From a virus, in the UHGV virus genome UHGV-2198042: a stretch of 18,814 nucleotides of DNA. One strand, given 5' to 3'. This document shows, piece after piece, positions 1 through 18,664 of the stretch. The position numbers and the translations under genes were made by a program. Numbering within the stretch: position 1 is the stretch's first letter; every line of letters starts with the position of its first letter. The notes under the pieces are model-generated. The model was not told the DNA's origin, did not search any database, and saw nothing but the letters and a program-made list of their open reading frames with translations.

Positions 1-62
1 TGGTATCACTTAAAGGTATTAAAAACAACTTTTTGTCTTTTTACCTTCCCGTTTCGCTCAAG
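1..62. other. host chromosomal flank (attB arm) outside prophage
   Basis: Sequence next to the att core (ttaccttcccgtttcgctcaag) matches, in reverse complement, the bacterial arm of E. coli lambda attB as I recall it; no phage-like ORFs. Confidence 0.6.
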
Positions 63-77
63 TTAGTATAAAAAAGC
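63..77. repeat. att core (O) copy, attR-type junction (P-O-B' read on minus strand)
   Basis: ttagtataaaaaagc is the reverse complement of the lambda core GCTTTTTTATACTAA; host-like sequence on one side, P-arm-like sequence on the other. Confidence 0.85.
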
Positions 78-222
78 TGAACGCGAAACATTAAAAAACA
101 TTAATATCAATGTGTTACAATATCTTTAGTCTAAAAAATAGACTACATGATGCTACAAAACACAACATATCCAGTCACTATGAATCAACTACTTAGATAG
201 TATTAGTGACCTGTAACAGAGC
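78..222. promoter_or_regulatory. attP P-arm homologue with Int arm-type sites
   Basis: Close (not identical) match to the lambda P arm from memory, including the arm-type motif cagtcactatg and ...tattagtgacctgtaacagagc. Confidence 0.65.
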
Positions 223-265
223 ATTAGCGCAAGGTGATTTTTTGTCTTCTTGCGCTAATTTTTTG
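223..265 (+). terminator. sib/tI-like retroregulator hairpin-terminator
   Basis: attagcgcaag...cttgcgctaat 11-bp inverted repeat followed by TTTTTT; position and sequence resemble lambda tI/sib just beyond the P arm, on the strand transcribed from int in circular phage topology. Confidence 0.55.
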
Positions 266-662
266 TCAAACACATTACGTCGTTTGCTGAATTTACAACC
301 ATGCTCAGTATCTCGATAAGCGCAGAGAAATGATGCAATGGTGGGCGGACTGGCTTGATGAAAAGGTGGAGTGATCCACCTTAACCCATATCGAATAGAA
401 CAAAGTCTTGCAATCCAGTGCAAAGCTTTGTGCGCCTAAGTTTTGTCTAAGCGTTCTACTGAAAACATAGTAAAATCGGTAACGGCTGGAAATCATTCAA
501 TACTCGCACTATCGAAAGTTCGCCAGCCAGCCGTGGCACGTTCTTGCATACGACGTGCTACGGTTTCATTTATCTCCCGAAACTCCATTTGGATTTATCC
601 GGTGCGCCGTAAAACCCCGTCCTTCAGGGCGTGGAGGATGTCAACTGGACGCACTGGAGCTG

Positions 663-725
663 GTCGATACTTCCGGTGCGCCAGATATTGAATGGCCTAC
701 GCCTCCGGCAGTTCAGGCCAGATGA
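663..725 (+). pseudogene. vestigial tail-fibre-assembly C-terminus in inverted orientation
   Basis: + strand frame reads VDTSGAPDIEWPTPPAVQAR*, matching the conserved Tfa C-terminal motif (..DTS.APDI.WP..P); upstream in frame is not Tfa-like and hits a stop at 480-482. Overlaps the 3' end of the minus-strand tfa. Confidence 0.45.
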
Positions 726-1305
726 CATCCGGCGCGGTGCTGGTATCTGTTGCCGTCACCGCGTCAATGTAATCCAGCGCAGCGTTAAGTCGGGCGGTTT
801 CTGCCTGCGTCAGATTCCGTCCGGCCCGTAATTTCAGCTGAATCAGACTAATGGAAGCCATTGCTGCATCAATCAGTGACTGGCGCTTTACTTCTGCCGC
901 GTCTAGTGCGGCACTATGCTGTGCATCGGCATCCGTCACCCATTTTTGGCCATCCCATTTGTCGTATGGCGTATCAGGTGCTTTGGTGGTGGTTCCTTCC
1001 GGGTATTCTCCCAACTGTGAAACTGCCACAGGTTCTCCAGTTTCCGTGCTGTAAACGGTTTCGCCGCGATGGTCTGCAACATATTCCCAACCGGTCAAAT
1101 CAGCCGTCCGGCAAACAGCAAAGCCGTCCTTTTTGCTGATTGGCGCATCCACGCACGAATTGCCTGGAACACCAACGCCAACGGGAAGATATTCAACAGA
1201 TAAACCGATATATTCACGCGTCACGCCATCGTAATTATAAACAGTGATAACCCCAGATTCCGTGGCGAACCCGTTTTCATCCAGGTTGATTTCTTTTGTG
1301 GTCAT
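697..1305 (-). CDS. tfa: tail fibre assembly protein (Tfa family)
   Basis: 202 aa; C-terminus ...DTSTAPDVIWPELPEA typical of lambda Tfa / Mu gpU-type chaperones; immediately downstream of the tail fibre gene. Confidence 0.8.
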   Translation of the reverse strand: MTTKEINLDENGFATESGVITVYNYDGVTREYIGLSVEYLPVGVGVPGNSCVDAPISKKDGFAVCRTADLTGWEYVADHRGETVYSTETGEPVAVSQLGEYPEGTTTKAPDTPYDKWDGQKWVTDADAQHSAALDAAEVKRQSLIDAAMASISLIQLKLRAGRNLTQAETARLNAALDYIDAVTATDTSTAPDVIWPELPEA

Positions 1306-2189
1306 TATACCGCCCTTACAATGTAGTTGAATGCAATGTTGCGCGGACGGGTTTCTGAGCCGCCCACTTCGACGGTTGGTCGAGTATCGAAATTTACTAC
1401 TTTCCCGCTTGCATCTGCTGAAACAAGGTCATAGCCCCCAGTAGGATCAAAGGCGCTTAACCCCCATGTGCGATCAAAGTTATGGCTGTGGGATTTAAAC
1501 TCATCGTTCTGAGTAGACAGTAAACCGCGGCCATTATCCACACCGCGCCCGTCATCCCAGCCACGAATAAACTCACCACGTAAATCAGGCAATTTATTTG
1601 TCGGATAAGCCTTTGCTAGTTCCGGATATTCTTCAGCAGAAAAAGCCGCACCATTGCATTTCAACCAGCCTGTTGGCGGAGTGGCTGAAGGCCACGGAAC
1701 AGGCACCCCAACAGGTAATGCTGAGCCTTCTCCCAAACCAAGGTATGTGAGAATATCAGCAATAGTATTTTTCCCAATAATGTCACGGCCAACAGAAGTT
1801 AAATCAGTCTGCGCTGCTGTATCATTTCCAGTGAAATATGGGAGTTTATTTGCACCTGTTGCGAGCCCAGCTAATGCCGACAGCGTGGCATCAAGCGCCT
1901 GGAAATCTTTCCCGAAAGCGGTCCCCATTTTGGATATAAACCCGTTCAGGTCTCCATCATCAAGCACATCCAGCCCGCTTTTGTTGGCGGTGTACTGCGC
2001 CAACGCTGCCGCGATAAAGCTGGCTTGCCGAATAGCTTTGTTGACCTGTGCGCTGGATGCTTTACCTGCCGTAAACCCTGAAAGCAGAGCCGGAAGTGCT
2101 TCCCAGTCAGCTTGTGAGGTGACGTTAGCGTTCGGATCAAGCGCGAAAGGTTTAAAGTTGTTTATTGCCATTAGAGTATTGTCCCCCAT
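1305..2189 (-). CDS. tail fibre protein (P2 gpH-like N-region, tail-collar type C-terminus)
   Basis: 294 aa; segment DATLSALAGLATGANKLPYFTGND...VGRDIIGK resembles the P2 gpH conserved region; C-terminal GWLKCNGAAFS...PDLRGEFIRGW resembles the phage tail collar motif. Confidence 0.75.
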   Translation of the reverse strand: MGDNTLMAINNFKPFALDPNANVTSQADWEALPALLSGFTAGKASSAQVNKAIRQASFIAAALAQYTANKSGLDVLDDGDLNGFISKMGTAFGKDFQALDATLSALAGLATGANKLPYFTGNDTAAQTDLTSVGRDIIGKNTIADILTYLGLGEGSALPVGVPVPWPSATPPTGWLKCNGAAFSAEEYPELAKAYPTNKLPDLRGEFIRGWDDGRGVDNGRGLLSTQNDEFKSHSHNFDRTWGLSAFDPTGGYDLVSADASGKVVNFDTRPTVEVGGSETRPRNIAFNYIVRAV

Positions 2190-2851
2190 GCTCCAACATC
2201 GAACCCGCCGATGTATTCGTTATCCATATCAAACCCAAAGAATTTAGAGCCTTCTGACGGTGTTTCTACCGAAGGCGTTTCAACATCACCGGCCCATACG
2301 CCAGCTGATTTAACGGTGAGATAGCCCTGTTTGATAGCGGCGATCAGTTCGAGAGACACATCAGAAATATCAGTTTCAGGGAAAACCCAGACCGAAATCG
2401 TCATGTCCTGGTTGTCGACGATCTGCATCCTCAGGCCTGAGCCTGCGGTAGCAGCGTCAAGGATGGGAGGCAGAGAGTCGTTCCGACCGTCCCAGTTGTT
2501 GATAGCGATTTTCGCTTTCAGAATGATGCGGTACGTCTCATCGCTTAGCGTCGTATAGCCAGAATCAGGATCATATGGCCCTTGCCAGATGCCCTGGTCA
2601 TACCCAAGCCCGTCAGTGTCCAAGCTGAAATAAACTCCGCTAATTGGCTGGCTGACTATGCGACTGCGTCCGATCCACAGACCGAGGATGTCGAGCTGTA
2701 CACCGACAGCAGTATCGATATCGAAGGCTGTTATAAGCCCTGACATAGTGCTGGACACATCAATCAGCGGGCAGGTGCTCAGATCTATATGGTCAAAAAA
2801 GAGTGGCTTGGTAGCGTGGTAGTTAGTGATCAGTTCGGTGTATTTGCTCAT
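2171..2851 (-). CDS. baseplate protein (P2 gpI / Mu gp48-like)
   Basis: 226 aa ORF between the baseplate J-like gene and the tail fibre gene, with overlapping stop/start; assignment by synteny and size. Confidence 0.6.
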   Translation of the reverse strand: MSKYTELITNYHATKPLFFDHIDLSTCPLIDVSSTMSGLITAFDIDTAVGVQLDILGLWIGRSRIVSQPISGVYFSLDTDGLGYDQGIWQGPYDPDSGYTTLSDETYRIILKAKIAINNWDGRNDSLPPILDAATAGSGLRMQIVDNQDMTISVWVFPETDISDVSLELIAAIKQGYLTVKSAGVWAGDVETPSVETPSEGSKFFGFDMDNEYIGGFDVGAWGTIL

Positions 2852-4047
2852 GAGGTCACCGTGATACTGATATTCGCGGTGCTACAGGACGCTGAAGCAT
2901 CATAGGCAATATCAATGTTTGATGCCGATACGCTGCCAGACGACTTACCGATCAGCAGGTCGGTAATATCGTAATAGCGGGCATTCCCGCCGCTCACAAC
3001 GCCGAGGTTTGCCGGGGAATAAATACGGCTCAGCAGAACGTCGTCGCCAATTGTTAGGCCATTTATATAATCGGCAACAGCCTGTTTAATCTGCTCGCCG
3101 ATTTGAGAGGTATAGCCGGTAAAAACTTTCAGGGTAATGGCTACGAAAATTGGCACATCGGTAGAGCGCGAAAAACTGATGACGTGAGGATTACCATAAG
3201 TATCCGGCACTGTGACAGAAGTTTTACCGTAAGTTGCGGTTCCCTGCCCTTTATTCCCCCTGATGGTCTGGGCTATCTCGGTAACATCCCCTCCATCGAC
3301 GATGGCGGAAATAGAGTGTGGCGGCAGCCCGTTGCTGTCGGTTGCCCCAGTATCGTTCTTATATAGTTTGTGACGTGTCACGCCAGCAACATTAGCGATA
3401 GCACCGTCGACACCTTCAAACGGTGTGATCGATGGTAGCGCGACGCTTTGCCCCTGCCGAATGCGCAGCTCTGCGTCGGTTTCGGCTGGTGAACCGACAG
3501 TAGCCGCAACTGGATTGGTTACCGACACCCAACCTCGGGTCGGGGTGTTGATAGTGGTAATAGTCCCGGCCAGCGCCGCAACCGAACCGCTATTCGCACA
3601 TGTGGCCGTCACCAGCACAGTACCATCAACGCCGATCGCTACACTTGCGGGAAAATTCCAGATAATGCCGTTTTTATCCCGTGCGGAGCCATTCGTGATA
3701 GTCGTGCCTGCCGTACCGGTTAACAGAAGGTCAGCAGTAGAGTTTGTCGCTACTTTTCGCGTGATCCCGTTAATTTTCACATTGCTGCTAAGCGCTGCGG
3801 CCTGCGCTGTCGTCGGTGAAAAAGAGTTGTAGATCCCGATAGCGGTGTTGTTAGCGTCATGCACGGCAAGAGCCACCAGCGCGACCATCTGCCCGTCTTT
3901 GCTGTCTGGTTCGAGGTAGGCATCACTACCGTAAATCTGCCTGAAATAGCTGGTCAGTGTATCTAGGATTGTCTGGTAATCAGGCGCACTAATCCCCTGG
4001 GCGGTTACCGTTGCCGATAGCCCCAGCGTGTCGAGGTTCAAAGCCAT
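2848..4047 (-). CDS. baseplate J-like protein (P2 gpJ / Mu gp47-like)
   Basis: 399 aa; size, composition and synteny (after the gp25/W-like gene, before the gpI-like gene) fit baseplate J-family wedge proteins. Confidence 0.7.
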   Translation of the reverse strand: MALNLDTLGLSATVTAQGISAPDYQTILDTLTSYFRQIYGSDAYLEPDSKDGQMVALVALAVHDANNTAIGIYNSFSPTTAQAAALSSNVKINGITRKVATNSTADLLLTGTAGTTITNGSARDKNGIIWNFPASVAIGVDGTVLVTATCANSGSVAALAGTITTINTPTRGWVSVTNPVAATVGSPAETDAELRIRQGQSVALPSITPFEGVDGAIANVAGVTRHKLYKNDTGATDSNGLPPHSISAIVDGGDVTEIAQTIRGNKGQGTATYGKTSVTVPDTYGNPHVISFSRSTDVPIFVAITLKVFTGYTSQIGEQIKQAVADYINGLTIGDDVLLSRIYSPANLGVVSGGNARYYDITDLLIGKSSGSVSASNIDIAYDASASCSTANISITVTS

Positions 4048-10185: not shown

Positions 10186-10291
10186 GTTGTTGAGCTTTTG
10201 CCCAACCCGCCCTGATAGCTGCCTGTGTGGCGTTTAAATCTTTCAGGTACTCACGGGCAAACAGCTCTTGTTTGTCGGTGAGCTTTGCCAT
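10136..10291 (-). pseudogene. terminase small subunit N-terminal stub
   Basis: 51-codon frame MAKLTDKQELFAREYLKDLNATQAAIRAGW... matches the conserved terS N-terminal HTH motif, then loses similarity and stops; overlaps the tape-measure start in another frame; GGAG RBS upstream. Confidence 0.5.
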
Positions 10292-16524: not shown

Positions 16525-17559
16525 CTAATCGACCAGAATCATGCCAACACATCCTTTTTCTCGCTTGATTCGACGACTTTCGCTGACGATTTGAGCCAGA
16601 GATAATCCCGGCGTGTCGTCGATGTAAAGCAGGTCGATTTCACTCAAGCGATTGGCTGTTTCGATCGCCCTGTTGAAGTCACCATCGTAATCACCCTGAT
16701 AGCCGTCATCAGCGTCATTTGTCGCCGGAATGTAAAAAATATTCGGGTTAACACCTGACTTCTGTCCTACCAGCTTTTCCAGTATCTGGTCGCCTGGCAT
16801 TTCAAGACTGAACATCAGAGCGGGCTTTTTCTCATGCACTGCGCAGTTGATTGCCATCTGGCTGTATAGCGTCGTTTTCCCCATCTTAGGGCGAGCGCCA
16901 ATGACGAACAGAGAGCCTTTCACCAGACCTTTCGGTGACAGCATCCTGTCCAGAGATGGGATCCCTGTGCTCATTCCTCGTTGTTCGCCTGACGGGTCAA
17001 ATCGCTTCTCAAGGTCGCTAACCCAGTCTTCCATGACCTCACCAAATGAGCGAAGGCCGCGACGCGATCCGGTTTTTGCATGGTCTGTCAGTTGCGTGAA
17101 AATCGCCTGAATAGCTTCGTACTTCTGCGTTGCAGTCATTCCGTTGCGGGAATAGAGCAATTCCGTCGCTTCAGTCATGCGGTTGATGGCGTAGCGTTCC
17201 ATTGCGGTTTCACGAACCTGCATTGCATAGGCAACGATGTTTGCTGCGCTTGGCGTGTTCTTTGCGATCTCAGCGATATAAGCAAAACCGCCAACAGACG
17301 CCGTTAACGATTTACGCTCCAGTTCATCGAAAAGCGTCAGGCCATCTACTGGCTTTTGCTCCCGGTGCATTCTGGTTATTTCTTCGAAAAGGATTTTGTG
17401 TGGTCGGCTGTAAAATGAATCAGGCTTCAGCATCGCCAGAACTTTCTGGACGCGCTCACTGCTGTCATCATCCAGAAGCAATCCACCAATCACCGCCTGC
17501 TCTGCCTCGATGCTATGGGGCGGCGCATAAAAATTATCGGTCATCGTGTTCACCCTCAC
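16525..17559 (-). pseudogene. DnaB-like replicative helicase (P22 gene 12 type), 3'-truncated at Walker B
   Basis: 344 aa; Walker A GARPKMGKT present; ends ...GCVGMILVD* exactly where the DnaB Walker B motif (hhhhDYLQ) should continue; about 100 C-terminal residues missing. Confidence 0.7.
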
Positions 17560-18115
17560 GAACTTTCAGGTAGGTATTATCGTTAAGCAGGAAATCAAAT
17601 CCCTTTTTGTGCCAGACGGTTCCGCGTTGATGGTTTGGGCGCTCTTCGAACATCCATCGGCAATTTTCGCCAACGTAGCTCAAATAATTTCTCCAGTCCT
17701 GCATCGTGAACCCATGCCCGTCAAGTTGGCGTGTTATTACTCCGGCTTTGCGCCAGAACGTTCGGATCTGGTTTTTACGCTTGTCATTCAGTGCGCGGAT
17801 TCTTGGCGCTTCAGGAAGGATTTCGTGGTAAGCATCGACAACATCCTGACAGCTGACGGAAGGTTTTTTCTTGTCAGACTTTTTGTCTGCTGTGGCACTC
17901 TCTAATACGTCAGTATTAGAGATATTATTTATATTATTGTTTATGGACAACTGTTGGACAACCGTTGGACAATCTCCGCTGAGAGCCGCACCATTACTGG
18001 TGTTTGCGTTGGACAACCGTTGGACAACCGTTGGACAATTTTTTGACTGAAAATCGTCATATTTAACGATTGTAAACAGGCTAAATTTCTTCCCCATCGC
18101 GCAAATATTAAGCAT
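17534..18115 (-). CDS. replication initiator (O-like, iteron-containing); start codon uncertain
   Basis: Overlaps helicase start as in O-P / gene 18-12 arrangements; contains the iteron cluster in its 5' part (repeated CPTVVQRLS); the ORF-track N-terminal 37 codons overlap the int-homologous segment, so an internal Met (about 18115 or 18097) is more likely. Confidence 0.5.
   Translation of the reverse strand: MLNICAMGKKFSLFTIVKYDDFQSKNCPTVVQRLSNANTSNGAALSGDCPTVVQQLSINNNINNISNTDVLESATADKKSDKKKPSVSCQDVVDAYHEILPEAPRIRALNDKRKNQIRTFWRKAGVITRQLDGHGFTMQDWRNYLSYVGENCRWMFEERPNHQRGTVWHKKGFDFLLNDNTYLKVREGEHDDR
17944..18038. repeat. replication origin iterons: six copies of an 11-bp unit NNGTTGGACAA in two triplets, flanked by an AT-rich tract
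   Basis: Seen directly: atggacaa/ctgttggacaa/ccgttggacaa and gcgttggacaa/ccgttggacaa/ccgttggacaa; AT-rich tattagagatattatttatattattgtttat adjacent (about 17900-17943). Confidence 0.7.
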
Positions 18116-18217
18116 CCCTTTCGACTCAAAAGTCCGTAATAAGCTCCGAACTTTGTTGTCGGGGATGAATGTTTCTCTGACCAGCGACGGGCGTCCAGTT
18201 GTCCGATAGCTCCCTGT

Positions 18218-18664
18218 ACCGGGCAACGAGTCGGTGATTTATGCGAAATGAAGTGGTCTGATATCGTAGATGGATATCTTTATGTCGAGCAAAGCAAAAC
18301 GGGCGTAAAAATTGCCATCCCTACAACATTGCATGTTGATGCTCTCGGGATATCAATGAAGGAAACACTTGATAAATGCAAAGAGATTCTTGGCGGAGAA
18401 ACCATAATTGCATCTACTCGTCGAGAACCGCTTTCATCCGGCACAGTATCAAGGTATTTTATGCGCGCACGAAAAGCATCAGGTCTTTCCTTCGAAGGGG
18501 ATCCGCCTACCTTTCACGAGTTGCGCAGTTTGTCTGCAAGACTCTATGAGAAGCAGATAAGCGATAAGTTTGCTCAACATCTTCTCGGGCATAAGTCGGA
18601 CACCATGGCATCACAGTATCGTGATGACAGAGGCAGGGAGTGGGACAAAATTGAAATCAAATAA
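18218..18664 (+). pseudogene. int: integrase C-terminal fragment (lambda Int residues about 209-356)
   Basis: Translation ...TGQRVGDLCEMKWSDIVDGYLYVEQSKTGVKIAIPT...HELRSLSARLYEKQISDKFAQHLLGHKSDTMASQYRDDRGREWDKIEIK* is near-identical to the lambda Int C-terminus from memory; upstream of about 18218 the frame is unrelated and hits a stop at 18140-18142. Confidence 0.85.

What the first reader, a model, noticed from the sequence alone, without database searches (positions are those of the whole stretch)
600..725. Overlapping, oppositely oriented tfa C-termini suggest a lost invertible tail-fibre segment
The minus-strand tfa ends ...TAPDVIWPELPEA* at 697, while the + strand in the same place encodes ...VDTSGAPDIEWPTPPAVQAR* ending at 725; the two reading frames overlap tail-to-tail by about 28 bp. 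Tail-to-tail alternative tfa genes are the hallmark of Gin/Cin/Pin-type invertible host-range segments, but here the second tfa body and any invertase are gone. A direct repeat tccggtgcgcc (599-609, 672-682) lies in the remnant.
Basis: partly seen in the sequence, partly recalled or inferred. Interest (0 to 1): 0.5.

Follow-up and report, generated by a model that had tools for sequence, protein, structure and literature searches.

The report
Scar of lost tail-fibre inversion switch
This is the leftover end of a second, oppositely oriented tail-fibre chaperone gene from a Pin/e14-type DNA-inversion switch that has been deleted; the same scar is present in phage HK97 and is already annotated as a pseudogene in related E. 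coli genomes, so it is real but ordinary.

Summary
The minus-strand tfa (697-1305) and a plus-strand tfa C-terminus (645-725) overlap tail to tail by 29 bp.

The plus-strand piece matches the last 26 residues of e14 TfaP-type chaperones at 24 of 26 positions. Intact relatives, including one prophage at the same lambda attB site, carry the full cassette with the same 29-bp overlap: pin invertase, crossover site, alternative fibre tip, tfa', tfa, and a fibre gene holding a second crossover site.

The window keeps only one crossover site (1728-1753), the last ~6 codons of pin (567-587) and 26 codons of tfa'. About 1.3-1.4 kb is missing.

Exactly at the truncation point lies a 46-bp relic of insertion sequence IS609 (599-644). 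Its left and right ends are fused at their shared hairpin, and it sits next to the TTAT target that intact tfa' genes have at that position.

The same 159-bp junction occurs in phages HK97 and HK106 and in seven complete E. coli genomes. K-12 has an analogous annotated remnant, tfaS/yfdK.

Verdict: interpretation supported, already a known kind, low interest.

The parts
63..77 (-). Lambda-type att core (GCTTTTTTATACTAA on the minus strand). Bases 1-58 are chromosome just downstream of ybhB (bio side of lambda attB).
   Evidence: Read directly from the sequence. Window 1-267 aligns at 94-98% to the ybhB-proximal prophage junction in L002-L004 and L006. HK97's annotated att core lies at the matching place.
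59..267 (+). attP P-arm and sib region of an HK97/lambda-type integration module (the attR end of the prophage).
   Evidence: 96.7% identical to HK97 L022 2195-2402, which carries the annotated att core and sib site.
291..374 (+). Remnant of the 3' end of an intS-type integrase gene (27 codons plus stop). It lies inside a 202-bp insertion (268-469) that HK97 and L004 lack.
   Evidence: tblastn with IntS of strain S51 gives 96% over residues 359-385. In S51 the full intS is contiguous with this sequence. HK97 and L004 join window 267 directly to 470.
470..566 (.). Sequence that in intact relatives lies immediately downstream of the pin invertase gene.
   Evidence: 95% to L004 3266-3364 and L001 3145-3243, and 86% to L005. 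In about 1,900 E. coli genomes window 530-577 matches; in the best-scoring rows listed the match is 100% identical, most of them under an annotated pinE/recombinase gene end.
567..587 (-). Remnant of the pin invertase gene: stop codon (567-569) plus about the last 6 codons (...GDK*).
   Evidence: Alignment with the pinE 3' ends of L005 and e14: CATTTATCTCC...GAAAC shared. Homology to pinE-bearing loci stops at 577-587.
588..598 (+). About 9-11 nt probably left from tfa' upstream of the IS609 insertion point (TGGATTTAT versus TGGATTAT in intact tfa'). Includes the TTAT IS609 target at 595-598.
   Evidence: All longer tfaP-type genes read ...TGGCTGGATTAT|CTGGAC at this point. Every IS609 copy examined is preceded by TTAT. 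PMC6906374 gives TTAT as the left cleavage site.
599..644 (+). 46-bp IS609 (IS200/IS605 family) relic. The left-end 5' part and the right-end 3' part are fused at the shared hairpin CGTCCTTCAGGGCG, and it ends ...GTCAA. There is no tnpA or tnpB.
   Evidence: Bases 599-631 equal the left end of IS609 copies in L007, L015 and L016. Bases 618-644 equal their right end (100% to L015 3481-3507). PMC6906374 gives TCAA as the right cleavage site. No TnpA or TnpB is found by tblastn.
645..725 (+). Remnant of the second (TfaP-type) tail-fibre assembly gene: its last 26 codons plus stop. A pseudogene.
   Evidence: 24/26 identical to the L004 tfa' and e14 TfaP C-termini. 92.5% nucleotide identity to L004 from 645 onward. 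RefSeq annotates the homologous 81 nt as 'tail fiber assembly protein, incomplete, missing N-terminus' in L003, L006, L013 and L019-L021.
697..725 (.). 29-bp tail-to-tail overlap of the two tfa reading frames.
   Evidence: The same 29-bp overlap is seen in e14 tfaP/tfaE (L012 2518-2546), CPS-53 tfaS/yfdK (L011 5078-5106) and in L001, L004 and L005.
697..1305 (-). Intact TfaE-type tail-fibre assembly chaperone (202 aa).
   Evidence: Pfam Caudo_TAP E=1.2e-30. 73% identical to e14 TfaE over 195 aa.
1305..2189 (-). Tail-fibre gene (294 aa). Its constant N-terminal part (2189-1754) is fused in frame to one variable C-terminal part (1727-1305, Collar domain).
   Evidence: ORF. Pfam Collar E=1.3e-15 at residues 161-208. 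Homology to relatives with other fibre tips breaks at 1723-1726.
1728..1753 (+). Single (orphan) Pin-type 26-bp crossover site, TTCTCCCAAACCAAGGTATGTGAGAA, at the constant/variable junction of the fibre gene.
   Evidence: Unique in the window, with 0 matches expected by chance. Its left half is identical to the e14 site TTCTCCCAAACCAACGTTTATGAAAA. Intact loci L001, L004, L005 and e14 have a second, inverted copy next to pin, whereas the window, L002, L003, L006, CPS-53 and HK97 have only this one.

Best explanation
**What it is.** Window 567-725 is the scar of a Pin/e14-type invertible tail-fibre cassette.

**Ancestral arrangement.** This is still seen in relatives. The order was: pin invertase, crossover site, alternative fibre tip (Sv'), tfa' (TfaP-type). 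Then, overlapping tfa' tail to tail by 29 bp, came tfa (TfaE-type), the current fibre tip, a second crossover site, and the constant part of the fibre gene. Pin-mediated inversion between the two sites swapped fibre tip and chaperone, and so switched host range.

**What is shown here.** One crossover site, the TfaE-type chaperone, 26 codons of tfa' and about 6 codons of pin survive. About 1.3-1.4 kb is gone: nearly all of pin, the second site, Sv' and about 111-119 codons of tfa'.

**What is inferred.**
1. An IS609 element inserted 3' of the TTAT inside tfa' (...GGATTAT|CTGGAC...).
2. A deletion removed everything from about 10 nt left of the IS to the end of pin.
3. The IS itself collapsed to a 46-bp relic by loss of the DNA between the 14-nt repeat shared by its two terminal hairpins.
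The order of steps 2 and 3 is unknown.

**Consequence.** The fibre gene is locked in one orientation and the plus-strand ORF 555-725 is not a gene. The 29 overlapping bases persist because they encode the C-terminus of the intact Tfa.

**Origin of the event.** It is old and did not happen in this prophage. The 159-bp junction is nearly identical in phages HK97 and HK106 and in seven E. coli genomes at several integration sites. It therefore travels as part of the stf-tfa module by homologous recombination.
For: - **Intact cassettes in relatives.** They have the same gene order and the same 29-bp overlap. One sits at the same attB site.
- **Crossover sites.** Two inverted sites are present in intact loci and only one here.
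- **tfa' remnant.** 24/26 residues identical to TfaP-type C-termini.
- **pin remnant.** Window 530-577 matches about 1,900 genomes; in the best-scoring rows listed the match is 100% identical, mostly under an annotated pinE/recombinase gene end.
- **IS609 relic.** Its left-end and right-end parts match full IS609 copies. The TTAT and TCAA boundaries agree with PMC6906374.
- **Insertion point.** All longer tfaP-type genes have TTAT exactly at the truncation point.
- **Shared junction.** 97.6-100% identical in six other loci whose tfa bodies are only 76-81% identical, and 98.3% identical in HK97 and HK106.
- **Independent analogue.** K-12 CPS-53 tfaS/yfdK is an annotated remnant of the same kind.
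- **No coding partners in the window.** No invertase, Sv', tnpA or tnpB is present.
Against: - No genome among 5,426 complete E. coli genomes shows the intermediate, a full-length IS609 at this tfa' site. The IS-first order of events therefore remains an inference.
- The left flank of the relic matches tfa' only over about 9 nt, with one extra T. The deletion end lying about 10 nt from the IS has no established mechanism in this IS family.
- The pin remnant is short (about 21 nt) and contains a 3-4 nt indel relative to pinE.
- The host genome outside the window could not be examined, so a trans-acting invertase elsewhere cannot be excluded. With only one site it could not invert this segment anyway.
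Confidence: 0.9

Rival explanations
1. The 46-bp single-hairpin IS609 derivative is itself a mobile miniature element (PATE/MITE-like) moved in trans by TnpA. On this view it inserted as such into tfa', and is not the decayed relic of a full-length IS609.
For: - The identical 46-bp unit, flanked by TTAT, occurs at 100% identity in at least 34 records in unrelated contexts. These include STEC chromosomes, 65-110 kb plasmids and the region just upstream of stxA1.
- No full-length IS609 is found at the tfa' site in 5,426 genomes.
Against: - By analogy with IS608 (recalled from memory, not tested), right-end cleavage needs a guide sequence 5' of the right-end hairpin. The hybrid has the left-end version there.
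- Deletion between the 14-nt repeat shared by the two ends would yield exactly this product every time, so recurrence does not require mobility.
Confidence: 0.15
2. The cassette was lost by a simple illegitimate or invertase-mediated deletion, and the IS609 relic is an unrelated later insertion that happens to lie at the junction.
For: - The pin-side endpoint shows no IS609 sequence.
- Din-family invertases can act on quasi-sites (recalled from memory, not tested).
Against: - The tfa' homology begins at the very base after the IS609 right end.
- Intact tfa' genes have the TTAT target at that base.
- About 9 nt resembling the tfa' sequence upstream of TTAT remain left of the relic.
- An insertion after the deletion would have to hit a TTAT lying within 10 nt of the junction by chance.
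- No crossover-site-like sequence is present at 560-650.
Confidence: 0.08
3. The plus-strand ORF 555-725 (56 aa) is a real small gene, or the conserved 567-725 island has a function of its own such as a terminator or an sRNA.
For: - The island is 97.6-100% conserved while the neighbouring tfa bodies are 76-81% identical.
- There is a sub-threshold Rfam hit to CssrB at 532-595 on the minus strand (32 bits against a gathering score of 76).
Against: - The ORF's first 30 codons read through a pin remnant on the wrong strand and through an IS609 relic.
- RefSeq calls only the last 81 nt, and calls it a pseudogene.
- No promoter-like site and no minus-strand terminator were found.
- The RNA fold is no better than shuffled sequence (z = -0.84), and the DNA folds have z about 0.
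- The high identity is explained more simply by a recent common origin, with recombination breakpoints in the conserved tfa 3' end.
Confidence: 0.03

Closest known systems
Invertible P segment of E. coli K-12 cryptic prophage e14 (pinE, stfE, tfaE, tfaP, stfP/ycfK)
   Same: - TfaE-type chaperone (73% identity).
- The TfaP-type C-terminus overlaps it by the same 29 bp, with near-identical sequence.
- The same family of 26-bp crossover site sits at the constant/variable junction of the fibre gene.
   Different: e14 keeps pinE, both crossover sites, both fibre tips and both chaperones, and still inverts (PMC4272514). The window keeps one site, one tip, one chaperone and 26 codons of the other.
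tfaS pseudogene / yfdK in K-12 cryptic prophage CPS-53 (KplE1)
   Same: A truncated tfa pseudogene lies tail to tail with an intact tfa, with a 29-bp overlap. There is a single orphan crossover site in the fibre remnant and no invertase.
   Different: The roles are reversed: TfaP-type yfdK is intact and TfaE-type tfaS is truncated. About 100 codons remain. It has a different breakpoint and no IS609 relic was seen.
stf-tfa-attP region of lambdoid phages HK97 and HK106
   Same: The whole module is the same sequence: pin remnant, 46-bp IS609 relic, 81-nt tfa' remnant, tfa, and stf with an orphan crossover site. It lies next to a lambda-type att core. Identity is 98.3% over 567-800 and 84% over 470-1359.
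   Different: HK97 is a complete siphovirus with a lambda-like Stf. Here the module is attached to a contractile-tail baseplate set (DUF2612, baseplate J) in a defective prophage. A 202-bp insertion carrying an intS fragment separates it from the att arm.
Gin/G segment of Mu and Cin/C segment of P1 (Din-family fibre inversion systems)
   Same: The same logic applies: a serine invertase, 26-bp inverted sites inside the fibre gene, and two convergent sets of fibre tip plus chaperone. This comparison is recalled from memory and was not tested here.
   Different: Those systems are functional. Here only a remnant of the Pin-type version exists.
IS609 (IS200/IS605 family; tnpA plus insQ/tnpB)
   Same: - The left-end sequence follows a TTAT target.
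- The right end finishes in TCAA.
- The subterminal hairpin is the same.
   Different: It is only 46 bp long, has one hybrid hairpin and has no tnpA or tnpB. It is a relic or a miniature derivative, not an IS.

Membership tests
Din-family (Gin/Cin/Pin) invertible tail-fibre cassette | Adjacent serine invertase gene (pin/gin/cin) | tested here: not met
   No resolvase/invertase was found in the 20 largest ORFs (Pfam). tblastn with PinE and the L004 Pin gave nothing below E=0.8. Only the stop codon and about 6 codons remain, at 567-587.
Din-family (Gin/Cin/Pin) invertible tail-fibre cassette | Two 26-bp crossover sites in inverted orientation flanking the segment | tested here: not met
   The window has one site, at 1728-1753. 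Intact loci L001, L004, L005 and e14 have two.
Din-family (Gin/Cin/Pin) invertible tail-fibre cassette | Two convergent sets of variable fibre C-terminus plus tfa chaperone | tested here: not met
   One complete set is present (1305-1727 plus 697-1305). Of the second set only 26 codons of tfa' remain and there is no Sv'.
Din-family (Gin/Cin/Pin) invertible tail-fibre cassette | Crossover site located at the constant/variable junction inside the fibre ORF | tested here: met
   The site lies in frame in ORF 1305..2189. Homology to relatives with other fibre tips breaks at 1723-1726.
Din-family (Gin/Cin/Pin) invertible tail-fibre cassette | Observed inversion, with both orientations present in a population | not testable with these tools
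   This needs reads or PCR from the source strain. With a single site, inversion is not expected.
Caudo_TAP tail-fibre assembly proteins (PF02413) | Match to the family profile over the whole domain (intact tfa, 697-1305) | tested here: met
   E=1.2e-30, profile positions 1-131 of 131.
Caudo_TAP tail-fibre assembly proteins (PF02413) | Complete ORF with N-terminal domain and start codon (plus-strand copy, 645-725) | tested here: not met
   Only residues equivalent to 112-137 of e14 TfaP are present. The upstream sequence is an IS609 relic.
IS609 / IS200-IS605 family insertion sequence | Encodes a TnpA (Y1 HUH) transposase, usually with TnpB | tested here: not met
   tblastn with IS609 TnpA and TnpB found no hit below E=0.18 in the window.
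IS609 / IS200-IS605 family insertion sequence | Left end abutting a TTAT target and right end finishing in TCAA, with no target duplication | tested here: met
   The window reads TTAT(595-598)|CCGG...GTCAA(644)|CTGGAC. The boundaries are the same in L007, L015 and L016 and in PMC6906374.
IS609 / IS200-IS605 family insertion sequence | Separate subterminal hairpins at the left and right ends | tested here: not met
   There is a single hybrid hairpin, CGTCCTTCAGGGCG, with left-end sequence 5' of it and right-end sequence 3' of it.

The most novel reading that the evidence does not exclude
The 46-bp, single-hairpin IS609 derivative may be an autonomous-looking miniature transposable element moved in trans by TnpA. 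It is bounded by TTAT| and TCAA|.

On this reading it knocked out the alternative tfa and so started the loss of the inversion switch. It also seeded other loci, including the 5' leader of stx1.

This would be an unusually small PATE-like element active in E. coli phages.
Probability: 0.12. Interest if true: 0.4.

Novelty: already known. Interest (0 to 1): 0.13.

Why it matters
It matters little beyond correct annotation.
- ORF 555-725 should not be called a gene.
- The 81-nt piece is a tfa pseudogene.
- The fibre gene is fixed in one host-range state.

The locus gives a clean example of how a phage host-range switch decays and then spreads as a ready-made stf-tfa module among unrelated tail types and integration sites.

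The precise anatomy (orphan crossover site, pin stop codon, IS609 relic at a TTAT inside tfa') gives a dated marker for tracing exchange of this module, including in the model phage HK97.

Tried and rejected
- **Lambda remnant.** I recalled that phage lambda has a similar opposite-strand tfa remnant. Translating and searching (tblastn) the lambda region after tfa found none, so I dropped the claim.
- **Direct repeat as a deletion or duplication signature.** Rejected. It is at chance level and the two copies have unrelated origins.
- **A second crossover site or half-site at 560-650**, which would suggest invertase-mediated deletion. None was found, even allowing 8 mismatches.
- **Terminator or structured RNA in the conserved island.** No signal. 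Rfam gave only a sub-threshold CssrB hit.
- **Finding the source genome and other species with the junction.** Two exact-pattern scans of genome contigs returned 0 hits. The host genome therefore could not be searched for an invertase.
- **A full-length IS609 at the tfa' site as an intermediate.** None in 5,426 E. coli genomes.
- **Classical papers.** Haggard-Ljungquist 1992 (PMC206541) and Mehta 2004 (PMC331406) are not held. Statements about Mu, P1 and IS608 mechanisms rest on my own knowledge.
- **Counting relics by 80% coverage** of the 46-bp query was uninformative. Gapped left-end hits also pass that threshold.

Full report
**1. Observation**

The six-frame ORF list shows a 202-aa minus-strand ORF at 697..1305 ending ...TAPDVIWPELPEA*. 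It also shows a plus-strand ORF at 555..725 ending ...LDALELVDTSGAPDIEWPTPPAVQAR*. The two overlap at 697-725, which is 29 bp.

The minus-strand protein is a full Caudo_TAP tail-fibre assembly protein (E=1.2e-30). It is 73% identical to e14 TfaE.

Of the plus-strand ORF, only the last 26 codons (645-722) resemble a Tfa. They match the C-terminus of the second tfa of relative L004 at 24/26 residues (E=1e-15) and e14 TfaP likewise.

About 35% of simulated sequences contain such a repeat.

**2. Context**

- Window 1-267 is the ybhB-proximal junction of a prophage at the lambda attB site. It has the lambda core at 63-77 and a P arm/sib region 96.7% identical to phage HK97.
- The minus strand then carries tfa, a 294-aa fibre gene with a Collar domain, DUF2612, baseplate J, the spike protein, baseplate hub proteins and an SLT-domain tape-measure-like gene.
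- At about 10206-10286 this tail module is joined directly to a lambdoid lysis, Q, nin and replication region. No head, sheath or tube genes lie between them.
- The tape-measure-like ORF is 545 aa here against 755 aa in a relative. The prophage is therefore defective.
- No invertase is present anywhere in the window.

**3. Intact relatives**

- Prophage L004 lies at the same attB site. L001 and L005 lie at other sites. All three carry, in this order: a pin-type recombinase (minus strand), a short fibre-tip ORF (plus), tfa' (plus), tfa (minus) and the fibre gene (minus). The two tfa genes overlap by exactly 29 bp.
- K-12 e14 has the same structure: tfaP at 2133..2546 (plus) and tfaE at 2518..3120 (minus), followed by pinE. 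It is known to invert (PMC4272514).
- A 26-bp site, TTCTCCCAAACCAAGGTATGTGAGAA, occurs once in the window at 1728-1753, with 0 expected by chance. It lies at the point where homology to relatives with other fibre tips breaks, 1723-1726.
- Each intact locus, including e14, has this site plus a second, inverted copy next to pin. The loci without an invertase have only the one inside the fibre gene: the window, L002, L003, L006, CPS-53 and HK97.

**4. Anatomy of the scar**

- Relative to L004, window 470-567 is the sequence just downstream of pin, and 645 onward is the last 81 nt of tfa'. About 1.41 kb of L004 is replaced by 77 bp. Relative to L005 the gap is about 1.34 kb.
- Window 530-577 matches about 1,900 E. 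coli genomes. In the best-scoring rows listed it is 100% identical, mostly under an annotated pinE/recombinase gene end. Bases 567-587 retain the pin stop codon and about 6 codons.
- Window 599-644 is built from IS609. Bases 599-631 match the left end of full IS609 copies (tnpA plus insQ/tnpB) in K-12 and other strains. Bases 618-644 match their right end. The two parts are fused within the 14-nt hairpin sequence that both ends share.
- Every IS609 copy examined is preceded by TTAT and ends ...GTCAA. This agrees with the published cleavage sites TTAT and TCAA (PMC6906374).
- All longer TfaP-type genes (e14 tfaP, CPS-53 yfdK, and those in L001, L002 and L004) read ...TGGCTGGATTAT|CTGGAC. The window's tfa' remnant starts at that CTGGAC, directly after the IS609 right end.
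- Left of the relic, TGGATTTAT resembles the expected TGGATTAT.
- From this I infer that IS609 inserted into tfa' at this TTAT. A deletion then removed the region from just left of the IS to the end of pin, and the IS collapsed to 46 bp.
- The insertion point is well supported. The order and mechanism of the deletions are inferred, and no intermediate was found in 5,426 genomes.
It is therefore coincidental.

**5. Distribution**

- The 159-bp junction (567-725) is 97.6-100% identical in six other E. coli loci. These lie at argW/intS, lambda attB (two), dusA, pphA and one further integrase site.
- It is attached there to three different tail backbones. The adjoining tfa bodies are only 76-81% identical.
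- RefSeq annotates the 81 nt in each as an incomplete tail fibre assembly protein.
- Phages HK97 and HK106 carry the same module (98.3% over 567-800), with an orphan crossover site in stf.
- The loss therefore predates this prophage, is compatible with a viable phage, and moves with the stf-tfa module.
- K-12 CPS-53 has an independent analogue, tfaS (pseudogene) and yfdK, with the roles of the two chaperone types reversed.

**6. Function**

The remnant has no function of its own.
- The 29 overlapping bases are kept because they encode the last residues of the intact Tfa.
- The remaining 52 nt and the IS relic show no promoter, no terminator and no fold better than shuffled sequence.
- With one crossover site and no invertase or enhancer, the fibre is fixed in one state.

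**7. Comparison and novelty**

- The locus works like nothing; it is a relic of a Din-family (Pin-type) switch. It fails the defining membership features: invertase, two sites and two tip-plus-chaperone sets.
- This kind of remnant is already annotated in reference genomes, and the very sequence is present in HK97. The finding is real and correctly interpreted, but already known.
- The only modestly new detail is the IS609 relic marking the truncation point.
- The same 46-bp unit recurs elsewhere. One example lies 41 nt upstream of the stxA1 start codon in an Stx1 phage.
- It cannot be excluded that this unit is a mobile miniature element. I rate that about 0.12.

Noticed in passing
L008 2506-2551 (Stx1a prophage of strain UTAK-1); many other records: The same 46-bp IS609 left/right-end hybrid, preceded by TTAT, lies 41 nt upstream of the stxA1 start codon, downstream of an AT-rich stretch that resembles a Fur box. 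It would then be part of the stx1 leader. Identical copies occur in at least 34 records, including STEC chromosomes and 65-110 kb plasmids.
   Followed up: partly
window 268-469 (intS fragment 291-374): A 202-bp insertion relative to HK97 and L004 sits between the att P arm and the pin-downstream sequence. It contains the last 27 codons plus stop of an intS-type integrase (96% to IntS of strain S51, where the full gene is contiguous with it). This is evidence that the module once sat in an argW/intS prophage.
   Followed up: partly
window 10186-10286: The tail module ends abruptly inside the SLT-domain tape-measure-like gene (545 aa here, 755 aa in strain 81). It is joined to a lambdoid KilA-N, Rz, lysozyme, holin and Q region. 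No terminase, head, sheath or tube genes are present, so the prophage is a defective chimera.
   Followed up: partly
window 17953-18029: Three copies of GTTGGACAACC lie within 80 bp, inside the replication-initiator-like ORF 17534..18226 (minus strand). They look like lambdoid origin iterons.
   Followed up: no
window 532-595 (-): Sub-threshold Rfam hit to CssrB, a Shigella chromosomal sRNA (32 bits against a gathering score of 76, E=4e-4). It falls in the sequence that normally lies downstream of pin.
   Followed up: no
window 567-725 versus 726-1305: There is an island of 97.6-100% identity across seven genomes and HK97, next to tfa bodies that are only 76-81% identical. This suggests repeated recombination with breakpoints in the conserved tfa 3' end.
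   Followed up: partly
L002/L017 (strain 81) 3474-3536 and 3826-4002; L014 (strain C 236-04A) 3085-3180: Other decay states exist at the same place in related prophages. Strain 81 keeps 177 nt of tfa' plus a 63-nt tfa fragment on the other strand. Strain C 236-04A has no annotated remnant between intS and tfa.
   Followed up: no
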